Part shown: one piece after another, positions 7,410-15,399 of the stretch
Numbering within the stretch: position 1 is the first letter of the stretch
Layout: each line of letters begins with the position of its first letter
Assembly: GCA_963727185.1 (NCBI GenBank)
Contig: CAVSFP010000016.1
Coordinates: 16,032 to 80,031, forward strand
Direction of reading: 5' to 3'
From: an uncultured Actinomycetes bacterium
GTDB lineage: Bacteria; Actinomycetota; UBA4738; HRBIN12
DNA: 64,000 nt
The notes under the pieces: model-generated
Seen by the model: the letters and a program-made list of their open reading frames with translations, nothing else
Told to the model about the DNA's origin: nothing
The model's database searches: none
Made by a program: the position numbers and the translations under genes

Positions 7410-8286
7410 CTAGATCTCCTTCAGCACGCGCAACACGGTGTCGCCGATGTCGGCTGGGTTGCGGACGGTGTGATGGCCCATCGCCTCGATCGCGTCGAGC
7501 TTCGCCGTCGCCGTGTCGCTCTCGCCGCTGATCACCGCGCCGGCGTGTCCCATGCGGCGGCCGCGCGGCGCCGAGACGCCGGCGATGAACGCCACCAGCG
7601 GCTTGCGACATGTACTGGCGCGACCAGCGCGCCGCCTCGACCTCCTGCTGCCCGCCGATCTCGCCGATCATCACGACCACGTCGGTCTCGTCGTCGTTCT
7701 CGAACTCGTGCAGGACCGTCTTGAAGTCGGTGCCGTTCACCGGGTCGCCGCCGATGCCGACGCACGTGGACTGCCCCAGCCCGAGCTTGGTCATCTGCGA
7801 CACGGCCTCGTAGTTCAGCGTCCCGGAGCGTGAGACGACGCCCGATGCGGCCCTTCGAGTAGATGTGCGACGGCATGATGCCCACCTTGCACTCGCCGGG
7901 CGTGATGATGCCGGGGGAGTTCGGCCCGATGATGCGCGTCGGCGGCCGGCCAGGTAGCCCTTGGTCTTCACCATGTCCTGCACGGGCACGCCGTCGGCGA
8001 TGATGACCGCCACGTAGACGCCGGCCTCCACGGCCTCGAGCAACGAGTCCGTCGCGAGCGCCGGCGGCACGAAGATGCCGGTGACGTCGGCGCCGGTCTC
8101 GTCGACCGCCTCGGCCACGCTGTTGAAGACGGGCAGTCCCAGGTGGGTCGTGCCGCCCTTGCCGGGGGTGACGCCGCCGACGACCTTGGTGCCGAACGAC
8201 ATCGCCTCCTCGGCGTGGAACGTGGCGTGCTGTCCGGTGAAGCCCTGGATGATGACCCGCGAGTCCTTGTCGACGAACACGCTCAT
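7410..8286 (-). CDS. mtkB: Malate-CoA ligase alpha subunit (SucD-like), frameshifted
   Basis: [41 protein letters not shown]; about 3 indels; follows mtkA. Confidence 0.8.
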
Positions 8287-9465
8287 GCCGGCACCTCCTG
8301 CGTCGCTGACCCGCGGCCGCGACGGCCTTGCGCGCCGCGTCGTCCAGGTCCTCGGCCTGGATCAGCGACAGGCCGCTCTCGTCCAGGATCGCGCGGCCCT
8401 CGTCGACGTTGGTGCCGGCCAGGCGAACGATCACGGGGACATCGATCGACTGGTCGCGCGTCGCCTGCACCACGCCCTGCGCGATCCAGTCGCAGCGATT
8501 GATGCCCGCGAAGATGTTCACCAGGATCGCGCGCACGTTCGGGTCCTTGAGCACGATGCGGAACGCGTTCGCGATCTTCTCGGGGCTGGCGCCGCCGCCC
8601 ACGTCCAGGAAGTTCGCGGGGCGGCCGCCGTGGTGCACGATCGCGTCCATCGTCCCCATCGCCAGGCCGGCGCCGTTCACGATGCAGCCCACGGTGCCGT
8701 CGAGCGCGATGTAGTTCAGGCCGTGACCCGAGGCCTCGACCTCCTTGGGGTCCTCCTCGTCGAAGTCACGGAGCTCGACGACGTCGCCCTGCCGGAACAG
8801 CGCGTTGTCGTCGAAGCTCATCTTGCAGTCGAGCGCGACCAGCTCGCCGTCCTCGGTCTCGATGAACGGGTTGATCTCGAGCAGGAGGCAGTCGGTGTCG
8901 CGGAACAGGCGGTAGATGCGCTTGAGCAGGCGCGTGAACGACGTGGTGCGGTTGCCGAGGCCGATCGCGTCGGCGACCTTTCGGCATTGGAAGTCGAGCA
9001 GCCCGACGCCCGGGTCGACGTACTCCGTGTGGATCGCGTCGGGGTCCCGCGCCGCGACGTCCTCGATGTCGACGCCGCCCTCGGCGCTCGCGATGACGAC
9101 GACCCGCTGCGAGTCGCGGTCCACGAAGCAGCGAGAGGTAGAACTCGCGCTCGATCCGCGAGGCGCGCTCGACCAACAGCCGGCTGACGTGCTGCCCTTG
9201 TGCACCGGTCTGGGGCGTCACCAGCGTGGACCCGAGCATCTGGTCGGCGAGCTCGGCCGTCTCTCGGGGCGTGCTCGCGATCCTCACACCGCCGGCCTTG
9301 CCGCGCCCGCCGGCGTGGATCTGCGCCTTGACGACCCACCGGCTCCCGCCTAGGTCCTCGGCGACGCGGGCGGCGGCCTTCGCCGTGTAGACGACCTCGC
9401 CGCGCGGGGTCGGTGATGCGGTAGGACCGCAGCAGCGCCTTCGCTTGGTACTCGTGGATGTTCAT
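8283..9465 (-). CDS. mtkA: Malate-CoA ligase beta subunit (SucC-like), frameshifted
   Basis: [50 protein letters not shown] is Mtk-type, not the SucC-type NIFGGIxRCD. Confidence 0.85.
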
Positions 9466-10431
9466 CGACGCCTCGATCTGGTCGACCTTCGCGATCAGCT
9501 GCTCGGCCATCCGGATCGACGCCGCGTCGATCAGCCGGCCGTCCAGCGAGACCGCGCCCTTGCCGTCCTTCGCCGCCTGCTCCATCGCCTCGAGGATGCG
9601 GCGCGCCTTCTCGACCTCGGCCTCCGACGGCGTGAAGACCTCGTTCGCGAGCGCCACCTGCGAGGGGTGGATCGCCCATTTCCCCTCACACCCCAGCGCG
9701 GCGGCGCGACGCGCCGCCGCGCGGAAGCCCTCCGCGTCCTCGAAGTCTCCGAACGGCCCGTCGATCGGGCGGAGCCCTTCCGCGCGGCAGGCCGCGACCA
9801 TCCGCGAGATGCCGAAGTGCCACTGGTCGCCCCAGTGCAGGGCGCGTGCTCGCCGAGGCGTCGGCGTCGGTCAGCACCGCGTAGTCGGGGTTCGCACCGC
9901 CGATGTTCGTGGTGCGCGCCCGCACGCTCGCCGCGTAGTCCGCCACGCCGAACACCATGGCCTCCAGTCGATCCGGGCGGGCGCGCGAGATCGCCTCGAC
10001 GTTCGCCATGCCCTTCGCGGTCTCGATCAGGATGTGGATGCCGATCCGGCCGGCCGGCCATCCGTTGCGCTGCTCGATCTGATCCAGCAACGTCGCGACG
10101 AACTCCACGTCGGACGGCGAGCCGACCTTGGGGACCAGGACGGTGTCGAGCATGTCGCCCGCCTGCTCCACGACCTCGACGACGTCGCGGTAGCACCAGT
10201 GCGTGTCGAGGCCGTTGACGCGGACGCTCACCGCGCACGCCGGTCCAGTCCTGACCGAGGAGCGCGTCGATCACGTTGGCGCGCGCCTGCTCCTTGTCGT
10301 CGGGCGCGACCGCGTCCTCGAGGTCGAGGAACACGACGTCGGCTCCGAGCGTGGGCGCCTTCGTCCATGGCCCGGACGTTGGTGCCGGGAACGGCGAGCT
10401 CGCTCCGGTGGGGCCGGTCCTTGCGTGCCAT
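9462..10431 (-). CDS. mcl: L-malyl-CoA/beta-methylmalyl-CoA lyase, frameshifted
   Basis: RSELAVPG, FLDLEDAVAP, FGVADYAAS.RARTT.IGG.NPDY, WGDQWH, DGPFGDF, GCEGKWAIHPSQ. Confidence 0.9.
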
Positions 10432-14401: not shown

Positions 14402-14409
14402 GGGGGGAT

Positions 14410-15399
14410 TCAGCCCCTCAGAGCGTCGGGGTTCAGCAGGGTCGGCGGCGTGTCGCCGTCGAGCGCGGCGAACACGTTCTGCACGGCGAGCGTGCCCCAT
14501 CGCGTCGCGGGTGTCGACGGTCGCGCTCCCCAGGTGGGGGATCACCACGACGTTCTCGAGCGAGAGCAGCCGCGGCTCGACCTCCGGCTCGCGTTCGAAC
14601 ACGTCGAGACCGGCGGCGAAGATCTCGCCGGACGCGAGCGCGTCGGCGAGCGCGAGCTCGTCGACGACCGGACCGCGGGACGTGTTCACCAGGACGGCGG
14701 TCGGCTTCATCCGCGTGAACGCCTCGGCGTCGAACAGGTGCCGCGTCTCCGGCGTGAGGTTGGTGTGGATCGAGACGAAGTCGGCCTCGCGCGAGCAGGT
14801 CGTCGAGCTCGCGTCGCTCGGCGCCGGTCTCGGCCTCGACGTCCGGCGGGAGCTGGACCGCGTCGCTGTAGATCACGCGCATCCCGAACCCCGTTCGCGC
14901 GGCGGGCGACCGCCTGGCCGATCCGTCCGAACCCCACGATGCCGATCGTCTTGTGGTGCACGTCCTGGCCGAGCATCATCAGCGGGCCCCAGATCCACGG
15001 CGTGTCGGCGCGCAGGAACCGCTCGCCCTCACCGACGCGTCGCGCGGCGGCCATCAGCAGGGCGAACGCGGTGTCGGCGGTGGTCTCGGTCAGGACGTCG
15101 GGGGTGTTCGTCGCCAGGACGCCGGCGGCCGTGCAGGCCGCGACGTCGATGTTGTCGAACCCCACGGCGTGGTTCGCGACGATCTTCAGCTGTGGTCCGG
15201 CCGCCTCCAGGAACTCGGCGTCGACCTGCTCGGTCAGCATCGTGATGATGGCGTCGCGACCGGCGACGACCTTCAGCAGCTCGTCGCGGGGGATGCCGAA
15301 CTCGTTCTCGTGGATCGTCACGTCGCATCGCTCGCGAAGGATGCGCGTCGGCTCCTCCATGATCGGTCGGGTGACCAGGACGTTCGCTCGTTCGCTCAT
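14410..15399 (-). CDS. D-glycerate dehydrogenase / hydroxypyruvate-glyoxylate reductase, frameshifted
   Basis: [52 protein letters not shown]. Confidence 0.9.

What the first reader, a model, noticed from the sequence alone, without database searches (positions are those of the whole stretch)
7410..15399. Serine-cycle / malyl-CoA gene cluster in an actinobacterium
Seen: six co-oriented genes for a hydroxypyruvate/glyoxylate reductase, Ppc, a glyoxylate-type class V aminotransferase, an Mcl closely resembling the alphaproteobacterial enzyme, and a CoA ligase with the malate-thiokinase motif [11 protein letters not shown]. Known: sga, hpr, mtkAB, ppc and mcl form the serine-cycle cluster of Methylorubrum, whereas characterised actinobacterial methylotrophs mostly use RuMP or Calvin routes. 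Inference: either C1 assimilation by the serine cycle, or a natural CO2-fixing shunt (PEP + HCO3- to acetyl-CoA + glyoxylate) with glyoxylate passed on to glycine or glycerate. glyA, gck, mdh and C1-transfer genes are not in this window.
Basis: partly seen in the sequence, partly recalled or inferred. Interest (0 to 1): 0.8.

Follow-up and report, generated by a model that had tools for sequence, protein, structure and literature searches.

The report
Serine-cycle gene operon in Gaiellales
An uncultured soil actinobacterium (order Gaiellales) carries one operon with all the enzymes special to the serine cycle, which probably lets it build cell carbon from methylated amines, formate or two-carbon compounds; the many apparent breaks in the genes are sequencing errors.

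Summary
Window 15399→7410 (minus strand) holds hprA-like, ppc, sga-like, mcl, mtkA and mtkB.

**Frameshifts.** The 43 frameshifting indels inside the genes are assembly artefacts:
- None is shared with any of six genus relatives.
- 34 of 43 are insertions.
- Short-read contigs from four other metagenomes lack them.
- Private substitutions are 116 synonymous to 28 non-synonymous, with no stop codons.

**Identity.**
- The ligase is Mtk-type. [11 protein letters not shown] occurs in 23 of 23 mcl-linked ligases and 0 of 6 SucC. It lies outside the SucC branch, and a separate sucCD exists.
- Mcl is Mcl1-type.
- The aminotransferase is AGXT-type and the reductase GRHPR-type, so the operon is a mosaic, not a copy of the Methylorubrum cluster.

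**Rest of the genome.**
- Found: glyA, glycerate kinase, FtfL, an Fch-like gene, isocitrate lyase, a TMAO demethylase and N-methylglutamate-type genes.
- Not found: malate synthase, PQQ or NDMA methanol dehydrogenase, H4MPT genes, RuBisCO.

**Reading.** The best reading (0.5) is an ICL-positive serine cycle fed by methylated amines or formate, with reversible Mcl/Mtk also standing in for malate synthase. The main rival (0.33) is glyoxylate assimilation only. It rests on strict Mcl/malate-synthase exclusivity and on relatives that keep the operon without Ppc or Pyc.

This is a new variant of a known kind.

The parts
14410..15399 (-). hprA-like glyoxylate/hydroxypyruvate reductase (GRHPR/GhrB type); first gene of the operon; 6 frameshifting indels in this assembly
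   Evidence: Pfam 2-Hacid_dh + 2-Hacid_dh_C. The intact G007 orthologue scores 357 bits on NF009714 glyoxylate reductase, below the 455 cut-off. The closest solved structures are Pyrococcus glyoxylate reductases (6bii, 334 bits); Hyphomicrobium D-glycerate dehydrogenase 1gdh scores 217 bits. Limits.
11791..14401 (-). ppc, PEP carboxylase; the only PEPcase match in this genome; 14 frameshifting indels in this assembly
   Evidence: PEPcase pieces in several frames. G007 orthologue: NF000584, 740 bits. All PF00311 matches in G000 lie here. Private substitutions are 41 synonymous to 11 non-synonymous. Limits.
11579..11790 (-). Longest intergenic gap of the operon (193 nt in G007). It separates hprA-ppc from sga-mcl-mtkAB and is a possible internal promoter.
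   Evidence: Gene spacing in G007: 5 nt, 193 nt, 5 nt, then two ATGA overlaps. Promoter function was not tested.
10435..11578 (-). Class-V aminotransferase of the AGXT (alanine/serine:glyoxylate/pyruvate) type, here called sga-like; 11 frameshifting indels
   Evidence: Aminotran_5. Closest solved: 1vjo alanine-glyoxylate aminotransferase, 337 bits; plant SGAT 6pk1 only 120 bits. It is 30-31% identical to the Sga of the Methylocystis/Methylosinus clusters. Best NCBIfam hit is BhcA, 181 bits, far below the 650 cut-off.
9462..10431 (-). mcl, L-malyl-CoA/beta-methylmalyl-CoA lyase (Mcl1 type); 4 frameshifting indels
   Evidence: HpcH_HpaI and C-C_Bond_Lyase. Solved structures: 5ugr (M. extorquens Mcl) 419 bits, 4l9y (R. 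sphaeroides) 314 bits. Tree.
8283..9465 (-). mtkA, malate--CoA ligase beta subunit; its start overlaps the mcl stop (ATGA in G007); 5 frameshifting indels
   Evidence: ATP-grasp_2 + Ligase_CoA. NF010647 malate--CoA ligase beta: 551.5 bits, cut-off 604. SucC model PRK00696: 541.5 bits. Tree and signature.
8486..8518 (-). Signature [11 protein letters not shown] inside mtkA
   Evidence: Present in 23 of 23 mcl-linked ligases. The 6 of 6 SucC carry NIFGGI[VMT][RK]CD[LV] instead.
7410..8286 (-). mtkB, malate--CoA ligase alpha subunit; last gene; 3 frameshifting indels
   Evidence: CoA_binding + Ligase_CoA. It is 67-74% identical to the gamma/beta-proteobacterial mcl-linked alpha subunits and 51-52% to Gaiellales SucD.

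Best explanation
**Shown.** A real operon, functional in the living cell, lies on the minus strand as hprA-like, ppc | sga-like, mcl, mtkA, mtkB. It is conserved in an uncultured genus of Gaiellales (class Thermoleophilia). Its 43 apparent frameshifts are errors of a patchily polished long-read assembly. The ligase is a malate thiokinase-type enzyme distinct from the cell's own SucCD. The lyase is an Mcl1-type malyl-CoA lyase.

**Inferred.** The operon is a glyoxylate/malyl-CoA hub. In this genome it most likely runs as the core of an isocitrate-lyase-positive serine cycle:
1. Methylene-H4F arises from methylated amines (TMAO demethylase, an N-methylglutamate-type module, GcvT-like demethylases) or from formate (FtfL, an Fch-like gene).
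2. SHMT joins it to glycine to give serine.
3. The AGXT-type aminotransferase passes the amino group to glyoxylate.
4. The reductase and a GlxK-type kinase give phosphoglycerate.
5. Ppc makes oxaloacetate.
6. Mtk and Mcl split malate into glyoxylate and acetyl-CoA.
7. ICL regenerates glyoxylate.

Both Mtk and Mcl are reversible, and no malate synthase was found. The same pair therefore probably also runs backwards, as an ATP-conserving substitute for malate synthase when glyoxylate comes from ICL.
For: **Operon and conservation.**
- Searches give gene content and limits.
- The full cluster is at 88-93% DNA identity in G010, G005 and G007. hprA-sga-mcl-mtkAB is also in G008, G012, G006 and G011.
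- Mcl of this type is in 44 of 108 sampled genomes of the family.

**Frameshifts are artefacts.**
- 0 of 43 are shared with each of six genus relatives.
- 34 of 43 are insertions.
- All 12 of the 12 listed indel rows from four other metagenomes' contigs fall at the same places and restore the G007 state.
- Private substitutions are 116 synonymous to 28 non-synonymous with 0 stops. The G005 lineage gives 79:17.
- 55 of 934 8-kb bins of the genome have under 30% long-ORF cover. FTHFS, GmaS-like and PckA are also split.

**Ligase.**
- Each of 5 genomes searched has two loci, one mcl-linked and one SucC; G000's own sucCD lies on contig C8.
- SucC forms one side of a branch (81/90) that excludes all mcl-linked ligases.
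- The signature is 23/23 against 0/6.

**Cycle partners.** The five genomes searched were G000, G007, G010, G008 and G012.
- FTHFS 5/5; ICL 5/5; Gly_kinase 5/5; SHMT 4/5, including G000; malate synthase 0/5.

**C1 island in G000.**
- The Tdm scores 1143.8 bits against a cut-off of 1100.
- Also present: SoxB/SoxA-like genes, two MgsC/MgsA-like sets, a GmaS-like gene, FTHFS, an FchA-like gene, FtcD, two GcvT-like genes and 5-FCL.

**Class-level context.**
- sga-mcl sits next to glyA (L074), to mgsABC-gmaS-DAO (L070), and to Tdm (L063; also L060 and L064 by tblastn).
- It sits next to phosphoribulokinase plus a CbbR-like LysR in 7 loci.
- 3 of the 4 such genomes searched had no RuBisCO match.
- This recalls the RuBP-responsive QscR control of serine-cycle genes in Methylorubrum, as summarised in PMC8388818 (passages read).

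**Precedent.** Methyloversatilis universalis FAM5 combines the NMG pathway, an hpr-sga-glyA-mtkAB-ppc-mcl cluster and highly expressed Icl (PMC5023235, passages read).
Against: - No PQQ methanol dehydrogenase over cut-off (0/5), no H4MPT marker MCH (0/13) and no NDMA methanol dehydrogenase over cut-off (0/13).
- MgsC-like genes show no association with the operon in the family: 12 of 26 MgsC+ genomes are Mcl+, against a base rate of 44/108 (Fisher p 0.65). In the sample of eight genus genomes (G000 plus seven), only G000, G008 and G012 have them. In the sample G007, G005, G011 and G006 had no MgsC-like match, yet carry the operon.
- FTHFS is in 107/108 family genomes, so it says nothing.
- G008 and G012 (98% and 96% complete) keep hprA-sga-mcl-mtkAB but have no PEPcase, no archaeal PEPC and no pyruvate carboxylase beyond a biotin-carboxylase domain. 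A forward serine cycle there would need ATP-PEPCK (13/13) to run backwards.
- G000 has no PRK or QscR-like pair.
- The aminotransferase and the reductase are not the methylotroph types.
- The MOFRL glycerate 2-kinase is not found (0/5).
- mdh, eno, folD/mtdA and ccr were not searched.
- There is no expression or growth data. G000 is 86% complete.
Confidence: 0.5

Rival explanations
1. Glyoxylate-assimilation operon with no net C1 assimilation. Glyoxylate comes from isocitrate lyase, or from glycolate, purines or glycine, and has two fates. In the first, Mcl condenses it with acetyl-CoA and Mtk runs backwards to give malate plus ATP, a substitute for malate synthase. In the second, the AGXT-type aminotransferase, GCV/SHMT, the reductase and GlxK turn it into phosphoglycerate, which Ppc (where present) carboxylates to C4.
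For: - ICL 5/5 but malate synthase 0/5 in the genus.
- In the family sample, 15 genomes have a true malate synthase and 44 have this Mcl, with zero overlap among 108. The chance of no overlap is 1.8e-4 if genomes are treated as independent.
- There are two within-genus contrasts: g10 (G083 against six others) and g30 (G149 against G071 and G143).
- 42/44 Mcl+ genomes and 15/15 MS+ genomes have ICL.
- G008 and G012 have no Ppc or Pyc, so ICL plus Mcl/Mtk would be their only net route to C4 acids.
- The operon shows no link to MgsC.
- The reductase is of the glyoxylate-reductase type and the aminotransferase of the alanine:glyoxylate type.
- A GlcD-like oxidase is in 12/13 genus genomes, though below the cut-off.
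- The authors of PMC11533326 propose exactly this reverse Mcl+Mtk complementation of a lost malate synthase in Methylomonas DH-1 (passages read).
Against: - ppc, irreversible towards oxaloacetate, sits inside the operon in G000, G007, G010, G005 and G011. It is under purifying selection in G000 (41 synonymous to 11 non-synonymous).
- The tightest and oldest linkage is sga-mcl, which fits product-to-substrate flow from Mcl to the aminotransferase.
- Elsewhere in the class, the same pair sits beside glyA, Tdm, NMG genes and PRK/CbbR-like genes.
- 33 of the 49 family genomes with neither MS nor this Mcl still have ICL. ICL therefore does not by itself require such a partner.
- Kinship inflates the exclusivity statistic.
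Confidence: 0.33
2. A natural CO2-fixing shunt. PEP plus bicarbonate gives oxaloacetate, then malate, then malyl-CoA, then acetyl-CoA plus glyoxylate. The glyoxylate is recycled to glycerate without any C1 input.
For: ppc, mtkAB, mcl and a glyoxylate/hydroxypyruvate reductase share one operon. No malate synthase is there to short-circuit it.
Against: - ppc is absent from the whole genome in G008 and G012, and broken in several relatives, while the rest of the operon is kept.
- Recycling glyoxylate through glycine and serine needs a C1 unit or loses CO2.
- A glyoxylate carboligase route was not searched for.
- This reading differs from the serine cycle only in the fate of glyoxylate.
Confidence: 0.06
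3. 2-phosphoglycolate salvage for a Calvin-cycle autotroph: a C2-cycle-like Sga/Hpr branch plus a malyl-CoA 'malate cycle'.
For: The nearest proteobacterial mcl-mtkAB trios are in lineages known, from recall, as RuBisCO autotrophs or RuBisCO-bearing methanotrophs: Nitrotoga, Gallionellaceae, Ectothiorhodospiraceae, Methylococcus. PMC8388818 proposes a serine-cycle variant of phosphoglycolate salvage in M. capsulatus. RuBisCO is present in the genomes of L063 and L070.
Against: RuBisCO large subunit 0/5 in G000, G007, G010, G008 and G012, three of them at least 96% complete. No PRK-like gene in G000.
Confidence: 0.03
4. A decayed, non-functional locus: the frameshifts are real.
For: All six genes are interrupted, 43 frameshifting indels in 8 kb. 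Many other genes of the window are whole. Cluster ppc copies in some relatives are also broken: G006 has a TAG stop, and G010 and G005 have 1-2 shifts.
Against: - The indels are private (0/43 shared).
- They are insertion-biased, 34:9.
- They are missing from independent short-read contigs at 12 of the 12 listed places.
- There are no in-frame stops, and the 116:28 synonymous to non-synonymous ratio matches the G005 lineage (79:17).
- Similar ORF-poor patches occur genome-wide, and unrelated genes are split in the same way.
Confidence: 0.03
5. Ordinary SucCD and a CitE-like lyase misread as Mtk and Mcl.
For: The NCBIfam SucC model scores above its cut-off (541.5 against 370), while the Mtk model is just below its own (551.5 against 604). 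Public annotation mostly names the relatives 'succinate--CoA ligase'.
Against: - A separate sucCD exists in G000 (contig C8) and in each of five genomes checked.
- The protein is 42% identical to the cell's own SucC against 61-63% to mcl-linked ligases.
- The tree and the 23/23 signature separate them.
- Mcl matches solved malyl-CoA lyases at 419 and 314 bits, against 82-132 bits for citrate lyase beta.
Confidence: 0.02

Closest known systems
Alphaproteobacterial serine-cycle clusters (sga-hprA-[mtdA-fch]-mtkA-mtkB-ppc-mcl), seen here in Methylocystis sp. LW5 and Methylosinus sporium (L059, L065)
   Same: The same six functions lie in one cluster. The Mtk signature [11 protein letters not shown] is identical. 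Mcl is homologous at 64-65% identity. The nearest solved Mcl is that of M. extorquens.
   Different: - Gene order differs. No mtdA/fch gap exists here; that those two genes fill the gap in L059/L065 is recalled, not tested.
- Sga is only 30-31% identical and of AGXT type. HprA is only 32% identical and of GRHPR type. Ppc is 32% identical.
- Mcl and Mtk fall in a separate Actinobacteria + gamma/beta group.
- No methanol or H4MPT modules were found.
Methyloversatilis universalis FAM5: ICL-positive serine cycle fed by the N-methylglutamate pathway (PMC5023235, passages read)
   Same: A cluster with hpr, sga, mtkAB, ppc and mcl. Icl is highly expressed on C1 substrates while malate synthase expression is low. 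Methylamine enters through NMG genes. G000 encodes the same logic.
   Different: FAM5 is a cultured betaproteobacterium that also has methanol oxidation and a malate synthase gene. Here the organism is an uncultured actinobacterium, glyA lies outside the cluster, nothing is known of expression, and the NMG genes are patchy among its relatives.
Gamma/beta-proteobacterial mcl-mtkA-mtkB trios (Methylococcaceae, Nitrotoga, Ectothiorhodospiraceae; Methylomonas sp. DH-1 in PMC11533326)
   Same: These are the closest non-actinobacterial relatives of all three proteins: Mcl 69-76%, MtkA 60-63%, MtkB 67-74%. Gene order and tight spacing are the same. A reverse, malate-synthase-like role has been proposed for them.
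   Different: In the four proteobacterial loci whose neighbours I scanned, the trio stands alone, with no aminotransferase, reductase or ppc beside it. Here it is fused into a six-gene serine-cycle operon.
Rhodobacter sphaeroides Mcl1 + Mcl2, the 'apparent malate synthase' of the ethylmalonyl-CoA pathway (PMC3832036, listing and start of abstract only; cited in PMC11533326)
   Same: An Mcl1-type lyase condenses glyoxylate and acetyl-CoA in an organism without a classical malate synthase. 4l9y matches at 314 bits.
   Different: There the thioester is hydrolysed and its energy lost. Here the partner is an ADP-forming ligase that could conserve it as ATP. ICL, not the ethylmalonyl-CoA pathway, supplies the glyoxylate; ccr was not searched.
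Synthetic reverse glyoxylate shunt and malyl-CoA-glycerate pathways (recalled; PMC6966089 seen in a search listing only)
   Same: Ppc, Mtk and Mcl are used together to turn PEP plus bicarbonate into acetyl-CoA plus glyoxylate.
   Different: Those are engineered. Here the arrangement is natural, and ppc is dispensable in part of the genus.

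Membership tests
Serine cycle (C1 assimilation) gene set | Malyl-CoA lyase of the Mcl1 type | tested here: met
   5ugr 419 bits and 4l9y 314 bits, against citrate lyase beta at 132 bits or less. Pfam HpcH_HpaI.
Serine cycle (C1 assimilation) gene set | Malate thiokinase MtkAB distinct from SucCD, with a separate sucCD in the genome | tested here: met
   Each of 5 genomes has two loci, and G000's own sucCD is on C8. 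SucC forms one side of a branch, 81/90. The signature is 23/23 against 0/6. The NCBIfam Mtk model scores 551.5 bits, just under its 604 cut-off. Substrate preference was not assayed.
Serine cycle (C1 assimilation) gene set | Serine-glyoxylate aminotransferase of the methylotroph/plant SGAT type | tested here: not met
   The closest solved structure is AGXT-type 1vjo (337 bits); SGAT 6pk1 scores 120 bits. It is 30-31% identical to Methylocystis/Methylosinus Sga. AGXT enzymes can carry out the same reaction (established knowledge), so the function is not excluded.
Serine cycle (C1 assimilation) gene set | Hydroxypyruvate reductase | tested here: inconclusive
   It belongs to the GRHPR/glyoxylate-reductase family (6bii 334 bits). 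The serine-pathway enzyme 1gdh scores 217 bits. It scores 357 bits on NF009714, below the 455 cut-off. Dual specificity is usual in this family.
Serine cycle (C1 assimilation) gene set | PEP carboxylase | tested here: met
   Met in G000, where the cluster copy is the only one. Not met in relatives G008 and G012, which keep the rest of the operon.
Serine cycle (C1 assimilation) gene set | SHMT and glycerate kinase elsewhere in the genome | tested here: met
   SHMT at G000:C23:109560-110699. Gly_kinase at C23:809404-810498. The MOFRL-type glycerate 2-kinase is 0/5, so the kinase class differs from what I recall for Methylorubrum.
Serine cycle (C1 assimilation) gene set | Glyoxylate regeneration (ICL or the ethylmalonyl-CoA pathway) | tested here: met
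   ICL 5/5. 42/44 operon-bearing family genomes have it. ccr was not searched.
Serine cycle (C1 assimilation) gene set | A source of methylene-H4F from a C1 growth substrate | tested here: inconclusive
   Present in G000: Tdm over its cut-off, NMG-type genes, GcvT-like genes, FtfL and an Fch-like gene. These are also used by non-methylotrophs for nitrogen or energy (recalled), and they do not co-vary with the operon. PQQ-MDH, MCH and NDMA-MDH were not found.
Serine cycle (C1 assimilation) gene set | Growth on, or assimilation of, C1 compounds | not testable with these tools
   The organism is an uncultured MAG. No RNA or labelling data were seen.
Malate-synthase substitute (Mcl plus a malyl-CoA-consuming enzyme, as in Rhodobacter Mcl1/Mcl2) | ICL present, classical malate synthase absent, Mcl present | tested here: met
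   There is zero overlap between 15 MS+ and 44 Mcl+ genomes among 108.
Malate-synthase substitute (Mcl plus a malyl-CoA-consuming enzyme, as in Rhodobacter Mcl1/Mcl2) | Net flux from malyl-CoA to malate in vivo | not testable with these tools
   That Mtk is reversible is taken from PMC11533326. No thioesterase (Mcl2) was searched for.
Succinyl-CoA synthetase SucCD | Groups with SucC and is the cell's TCA-cycle copy | tested here: not met
Phosphoglycolate salvage of Calvin-cycle autotrophs | RuBisCO and phosphoribulokinase in the genome | tested here: not met
   RuBisCO 0/5. tblastn of G000 with three PRK queries found no hit.

The most novel reading that the evidence does not exclude
Gaiellales of this family are among the commonest soil Actinobacteria (recalled). 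They may be unrecognised serine-cycle methylotrophs on methylated amines and formate. Their operon was assembled independently of the proteobacterial one, from an AGXT-type aminotransferase, a GRHPR-type reductase and a gamma-type Mcl/Mtk. The same Mcl-Mtk pair may double as a natural ATP-conserving replacement for malate synthase, which would explain why the two are never found together in the family. More widely in Thermoleophilia, the pathway would be wired to a phosphoribulokinase/CbbR-like switch like the QscR system of Methylorubrum.
Probability: 0.35. Interest if true: 0.75.

Novelty: new variant of a known kind. Interest (0 to 1): 0.55.

Why it matters
From recall, characterised Gram-positive methylotrophs use mainly the RuMP pathway. 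Five literature searches found no paper on serine-cycle genes in Gaiellales or Thermoleophilia among the titles and abstract starts listed (15 of the 43 hits were listed). One paper holding both words (PMC8552738, on cave methanotrophs) was seen only as a listing and not read.

If the forward reading holds, a very abundant and almost uncultured soil lineage would take up carbon from methylated amines, TMAO and formate. That would bear on soil C1 and nitrogen budgets, and it suggests substrates for cultivation.

If the reverse reading holds, nature already uses Mcl+Mtk as an energy-conserving malate synthase. Metabolic engineers build that same module. The strict Mcl/malate-synthase exclusivity makes this directly testable.

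In practice, public annotation names these ligases 'succinate--CoA ligase'. The signature [11 protein letters not shown] separates them cleanly.

Tried and rejected
- **Rfam** found nothing in the window at gathering thresholds.
- **First 4-way MAFFT alignment** of the loci was too noisy at the flanks to count indels. I replaced it with pairwise blastn alignments.
- **Indel density elsewhere in the window** against G007 and G010 is not a clean control. Window 22.3-27.3 kb shows 7 non-triplet indels per kb, yet its ORFs are whole. Much of that is real divergence, so I used private indels, substitution pattern, reads and genome-wide ORF cover instead.
- **The look-up of sequencing runs** found no run with more than 0.17 of the words. 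The contigs laid come from related populations.
- **The search for homologous proteins with MtkA** returned only relatives at 83% identity or more. It was useless for the Mtk/SucC tree, so I took SucC from the genomes behind the loci.
- **Neighbours of the proteobacterial mcl-mtkAB trios** were uninformative.
- **FTHFS co-occurrence** is uninformative, since FTHFS is near-universal in the family.
- **The TIGR01235 search** hit only biotin-carboxylase domains.
- **GlcD-like hits** are below the cut-off and also occur in G001, which had no Mcl match.
- **The root of the ligase tree** on the long-branched L068 sequence is unreliable.
- **Not used:** structure prediction, complex prediction and the atlas search, because the families were clear.

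Full report
**What is there**

The window is 66-73% G+C and is part of contig C16 of a 3.88-Mb, 24-contig genome, 86% complete. Stop-to-stop pieces between 7372 and 15438 match, all on the minus strand:
- 2-hydroxyacid dehydrogenase
- PEP carboxylase
- class-V aminotransferase
- HpcH/HpaI-type C-C lyase
- the beta subunit (ATP-grasp_2 + Ligase_CoA) and alpha subunit (CoA_binding + Ligase_CoA) of an ADP-forming CoA ligase

Each function is spread over two or three reading frames. A relative of the same genus, G007 (a 250-contig assembly, 96% complete), has the same stretch at 87% DNA identity with six whole genes. Its spacing is hprA-5 nt-ppc-193 nt-sga-5 nt-mcl, then ATGA overlaps mcl/mtkA and mtkA/mtkB.

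Mapping these genes onto the window gives:

| Gene | Window coordinates |
|---|---|
| hprA-like | 15399->14410 |
| ppc | 14401->11791 |
| sga-like | 11578->10435 |
| mcl | 10431->9462 |
| mtkA | 9465->8283 |
| mtkB | 8286->7410 |

The flanks are a convergent GNAT gene (6555-7400, +) and a divergent GNAT gene (about 15470-16026, +). The rest of the window holds unrelated housekeeping, pilus and regulator genes.

**Are the frameshifts real?**

Inside the six genes there are 43 frameshifting indels relative to G007, 34 insertions and 9 deletions. Several lines of evidence say they are assembly errors.

1. None of the 43 is shared with any of six genus relatives: G010, G005, G011, G008, G006, G012. 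In those genomes sga, mcl, mtkA, mtkB and hprA read as single full-length frames by tblastn in nearly all cases.
2. The insertion bias is the opposite of what I recall for bacterial gene decay.
3. I laid contigs of four public short-read metagenomes from four different studies on the stretch. These hold related populations, 90-99% alike, not the source sample. All 12 of the 12 listed indel rows fall within 4 bases of indels seen against G007 and restore the G007 state. The rows are at 7605, 7841, 7940, 9468, 10239, 10864, 12801, 14372, 14406/14409, 14490 and 14889. A further 39 rows were not shown.
4. Substitutions private to the window's lineage, read in the G007 frame, are 116 synonymous to 28 non-synonymous with no stop codon. 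The G005 lineage gives 79:17. Purifying selection has therefore acted until very recently.
5. The genome as a whole has ORF-poor patches. 55 of 934 8-kb bins have under 30% cover by long coding-like ORFs, and some stretches of 16 kb and more have none. The operon's bin (0.40) sits at about the tenth percentile.
6. Unrelated genes such as FTHFS, the GmaS-like gene and pckA are split in the same way.

One caveat applies. Many other genes of this window are whole, so the errors are patchy rather than uniform. I could not lay reads of the source sample, because the best run held only 0.17 of the words.

ppc is a partly separate matter:
- In G010 and G005 the cluster copy has 1-2 shifts.
- In G006 it has several shifts and a TAG stop.
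- In G008 and G012 it is missing from the cluster and from the whole genome.

**Who carries it**

Named relatives of the Mcl gene are MAGs labelled Gaiellales, 'uncultured Actinomycetes' (soil long-read bins), Thermoleophilaceae and Solirubrobacteraceae. The window's organism is therefore a member of Gaiellales, class Thermoleophilia.
- The full six-gene cluster is in G010, G005, G007 and G011.
- hprA-sga-mcl-mtkAB without ppc is in G008 and G012. G006 has it with a damaged ppc.
- In an even sample of 150 genomes of the order plus G000, all at least 85% complete, Mcl of this type (64% identity or more) is in 44 of 108 genomes of the family and in one genome of a second family. A second Mcl type, about 41-51% identical, occurs in the other families.
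- The invariant core in the family is sga-mcl-mtkA-mtkB.

**What the proteins are**

*Mcl.* It matches the solved malyl-CoA lyases of M. extorquens (5ugr, 419 bits) and R. sphaeroides (4l9y, 314 bits), far better than citrate lyase beta chains. In a tree of 81 sequences it lies in a group made of Thermoleophilia and gamma/beta-proteobacteria (Methylococcaceae, Nitrotoga, Gallionellaceae, Ectothiorhodospiraceae). The alphaproteobacterial group is separate.

*The ligase beta subunit.*
- It is 61-63% identical to the mcl-linked ligases of those proteobacteria.
- It is 52-55% identical to alphaproteobacterial MtkA, and about as much to proteobacterial SucC.
- It is only 42% identical to the Gaiellales' own SucC.
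- Each of five genomes searched has exactly two loci, one next to mcl and one ordinary sucCD. G000's own sucCD is on contig C8.
- In the tree, the six SucC form one side of a branch (bootstrap 81, SH-aLRT 90) and alpha-type MtkA form a clade (99/99). The Gaiellales ligase sits among the gamma/beta mcl-linked ones on a poorly resolved backbone.
[11 protein letters not shown] is invariant in 23 of 23 mcl-linked ligases of all three groups. The 6 of 6 SucC have NIFGGI[VMT][RK]CD[LV].

*The other two enzymes* are not the methylotroph types.
- The aminotransferase is closest to AGXT-type alanine:glyoxylate / serine:pyruvate aminotransferases (1vjo, 337 bits; plant SGAT 6pk1, 120 bits). It is 30-31% identical to the Sga of Methylocystis and Methylosinus.
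- The reductase is closest to Pyrococcus glyoxylate reductases (334 bits), ahead of the Hyphomicrobium serine-pathway enzyme (217 bits).

The operon is therefore a mosaic that reproduces the function set of the classical cluster without being a copy of it.

**The rest of the genome**

The five genomes G000, G007, G010, G008 and G012 are called 'the five' below.

| Feature | Result |
|---|---|
| FTHFS | 5/5 of the five |
| Isocitrate lyase | 5/5 |
| Gly_kinase-type glycerate kinase | 5/5 |
| SHMT | 4/5, including G000 |
| Malate synthase | 0/5 |
| MOFRL glycerate 2-kinase | 0/5 |
| RuBisCO | 0/5 |
| PQQ alcohol dehydrogenase over cut-off | 0/5 |
| MCH (H4MPT marker) | 0/13 in the genus |
| NDMA methanol dehydrogenase over cut-off | 0/13 |
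| GTP-PEPCK | 0/13 |
| ATP-PEPCK | 13/13 |
| GlcD-like oxidase, below cut-off | 12/13 |

Pyruvate carboxylase was searched in a different set of five (G008, G012, G000, G007, G006). It matched only as a biotin-carboxylase domain, so none is evident.

The neighbourhood of FTHFS led to an island on G000 contig C23, about 734-775 kb. It holds:
- a trimethylamine N-oxide demethylase over its equivalog cut-off (1143.8 against 1100 bits)
- SoxB-like and SoxA/GcvT-like genes
- two sets of MgsC-like and MgsA-like genes
- a type-III glutamine-synthetase-like (GmaS-like) gene
- a gamma-glutamyl hydrolase-like gene and a DAO gene
- FTHFS, an FchA-like cyclohydrolase and FtcD
- two GcvT-like genes and 5-formyl-H4F cyclo-ligase

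From the known N-methylglutamate pathway (recalled; see also PMC5023235), this is the gene set that strips methyl groups from TMAO and methylamine onto H4F. G000 thus encodes every step of an ICL-positive serine cycle, with a plausible C1 feed.

**Context elsewhere in the class**

In other Thermoleophilia the sga-mcl pair has these neighbours:
- glyA, a family-III CoA-transferase in place of Mtk, and ppc (L074)
- mgsABC-gmaS-DAO (L070, Solirubrobacteraceae)
- a Tdm over its cut-off (L063; also L060 and L064 by tblastn)
- GcvT-like genes
- in seven loci, a phosphoribulokinase (over the NF005655 cut-off in the two scanned, L063 and L074) together with a LysR regulator whose best model is CbbR

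Of the four such genomes searched, three had no RuBisCO match; their completeness is unknown. PRK without RuBisCO, next to a CbbR-like regulator of serine-cycle genes, is what is described for Methylorubrum. There, RuBP-responsive QscR induces the serine-cycle enzymes, as stated in PMC8388818 (passages read). The primary paper is recalled, not read. This is the strongest contextual support for a true C1-assimilating serine cycle in the class. The window's own genus, however, has neither PRK nor this regulator.

**Evidence pulling the other way**

*Exclusivity with malate synthase.*
- In the family sample, a true malate synthase (E 1e-40 or better) occurs in 15 genomes and this Mcl in 44. Among 108 genomes there is no overlap.
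- The chance of that is 1.8e-4 if genomes were independent, which they are not.
- Two genera (g10, g30) contain both states in different genomes.
- The eight weak PF01274 hits are the Mcl genes themselves.
- ICL is in 42/44 Mcl+ genomes, 15/15 MS+ genomes and 33/49 genomes with neither.
- This exclusivity is expected if Mcl+Mtk replaces malate synthase. It is equally expected if malate synthase would short-circuit a forward serine cycle.

*Other points.*
- More telling, G008 and G012 have no PEPcase of either type and no pyruvate carboxylase. In them the forward cycle could close only through a reversed ATP-PEPCK. ICL plus Mcl/Mtk would be their only net route to C4 acids.
- MgsC-like genes do not co-vary with the operon (12 of 26 against 44 of 108).
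- In the sample G007, G005, G011 and G006 had no MgsC-like match, yet carry the operon.
- The authors of PMC11533326 propose exactly the reverse Mcl+Mtk route to explain the loss of an introduced malate synthase in Methylomonas DH-1.

**Verdict**

The two readings use the same enzymes and are not exclusive, because Mcl and Mtk are reversible.
- For this genome I put 0.5 on the ICL-positive serine cycle with a secondary malate-synthase-like role.
- I put 0.33 on glyoxylate assimilation without net C1 uptake.
- The CO2-fixing shunt, phosphoglycolate salvage, a decayed locus and a SucCD/CitE misreading each get small odds.

Its physiological inference remains open, and the enzyme types differ from the Methylorubrum set.

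**Literature**

Five searches were run:
- Gaiellales + serine cycle
- Thermoleophilia + malyl-CoA lyase
- Thermoleophilia + N-methylglutamate
- Gaiellales + methylotroph
- Actinobacteria + serine cycle + malyl-CoA lyase + metagenome-assembled

None of the titles and abstract starts listed (15 of the 43 hits were listed) describes such a cluster in this class. The single hit (PMC8552738) was seen only as a listing. PMC6908837 (passages read) concerns XoxF methylotrophs, not Actinobacteria. Subscription journals are outside the library.

**Unpublished genomes**
- G009 enters the genus tallies. Its locus L010 is in the integrity table.
- G128 is one of the 44 Mcl+ family genomes. Without it the cross-table is 0 overlap of 15 and 43 among 107.
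- G085, G133 and G158 enter the ICL, FTHFS and MgsC tallies.
- G029, G050 and G059 are among the 9 malate-synthase genomes of other families.
- G029, G037, G050, G052, G053, G065, G068 and G076 are among the second-type Mcl genomes.
- No central claim rests on these alone.

Noticed in passing
G000 contig C23, about 734000-775000 (loci L109-L111); outside the window: Methylated-amine / H4F island. It holds a TMAO demethylase over its equivalog cut-off, SoxB- and SoxA-like genes, two MgsC/MgsA-like sets, a GmaS-like gene and a gamma-glutamyl hydrolase-like gene. It also holds DAO, FTHFS, an FchA-like gene, FtcD, two GcvT-like genes and 5-formyl-H4F cyclo-ligase. Several of these are frameshifted in this assembly.
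   Followed up: partly
L060, L062, L063, L064, L068, L073, L074 (Thermoleophilaceae and other Thermoleophilia loci): Phosphoribulokinase plus a CbbR-like LysR regulator sit directly beside sga-mcl. Three of the four such genomes searched gave no RuBisCO match. This recalls the PRK/QscR control of the serine cycle in Methylorubrum.
   Followed up: partly
L074:6413-7777, L079, L088: A family-III CoA-transferase stands where mtkAB stands in the window's family. It may form malyl-CoA by CoA transfer, as I recall for Chloroflexus succinyl-CoA:malate CoA-transferase.
   Followed up: no
L068:10273-12185: A divergent two-subunit CoA ligase (33% and 40% identical to MtkA and MtkB, without the signature motif) lies directly downstream of mcl in one soil actinobacterial MAG.
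   Followed up: no
G008 and G012 (whole genomes); G006:C4:803123-805476: Two near-complete genus members have no PEP carboxylase of either type and no pyruvate carboxylase, yet keep hprA-sga-mcl-mtkAB. G006's cluster ppc carries shifts and a TAG stop. ppc appears to be on its way out in part of the genus.
   Followed up: partly
Genus g31 of the family (13 sampled genomes): ICL is in 13/13, malate synthase in 1/13 and this Mcl in 0/13, while MgsC-like genes are in 11/13. The fate of glyoxylate in these genomes is unexplained.
   Followed up: no
G000 genome-wide, e.g. C23:856001-876000 and C9:268001-304000: Stretches of 16-36 kb have almost no long coding-like ORF. In all, 55 of 934 8-kb bins are under 30% cover. 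These are probably badly polished patches of a long-read assembly. Any gene-absence call in this genome needs care.
   Followed up: no
L020 (contig labelled Planctomycetaceae MAG253): It carries mcl-mtkAB 80-83% identical to the Gaiellales genes and nests inside the actinobacterial clade. This is probably a mis-binned contig.
   Followed up: no
L045:7379-7831 (Nitrotoga sp. LAW): A DDE transposase fragment lies about 1.2 kb upstream of the isolated mcl-mtkAB trio, which is compatible with horizontal spread of the trio.
   Followed up: no
window 24610-27105 (+) and 29066-34506 (+): Three tandem LuxR-type response-regulator genes are followed by a Flp/Tad pilus set (RcpC/CpaB, a T2SSE ATPase, two T2SSF genes). 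An RTX-repeat/PD40 protein fragment lies at 3-593.
   Followed up: no
G149:C126, G030:C6, G067:C206, G064:C125, G040:C66: Where Gaiellales do have malate synthase, it lies within about 1-2 kb of ICL, as an aceBA-like pair. In the operon-bearing G008, the one such genome whose ICL flanks I scanned, ICL has no malate synthase beside it.
   Followed up: no
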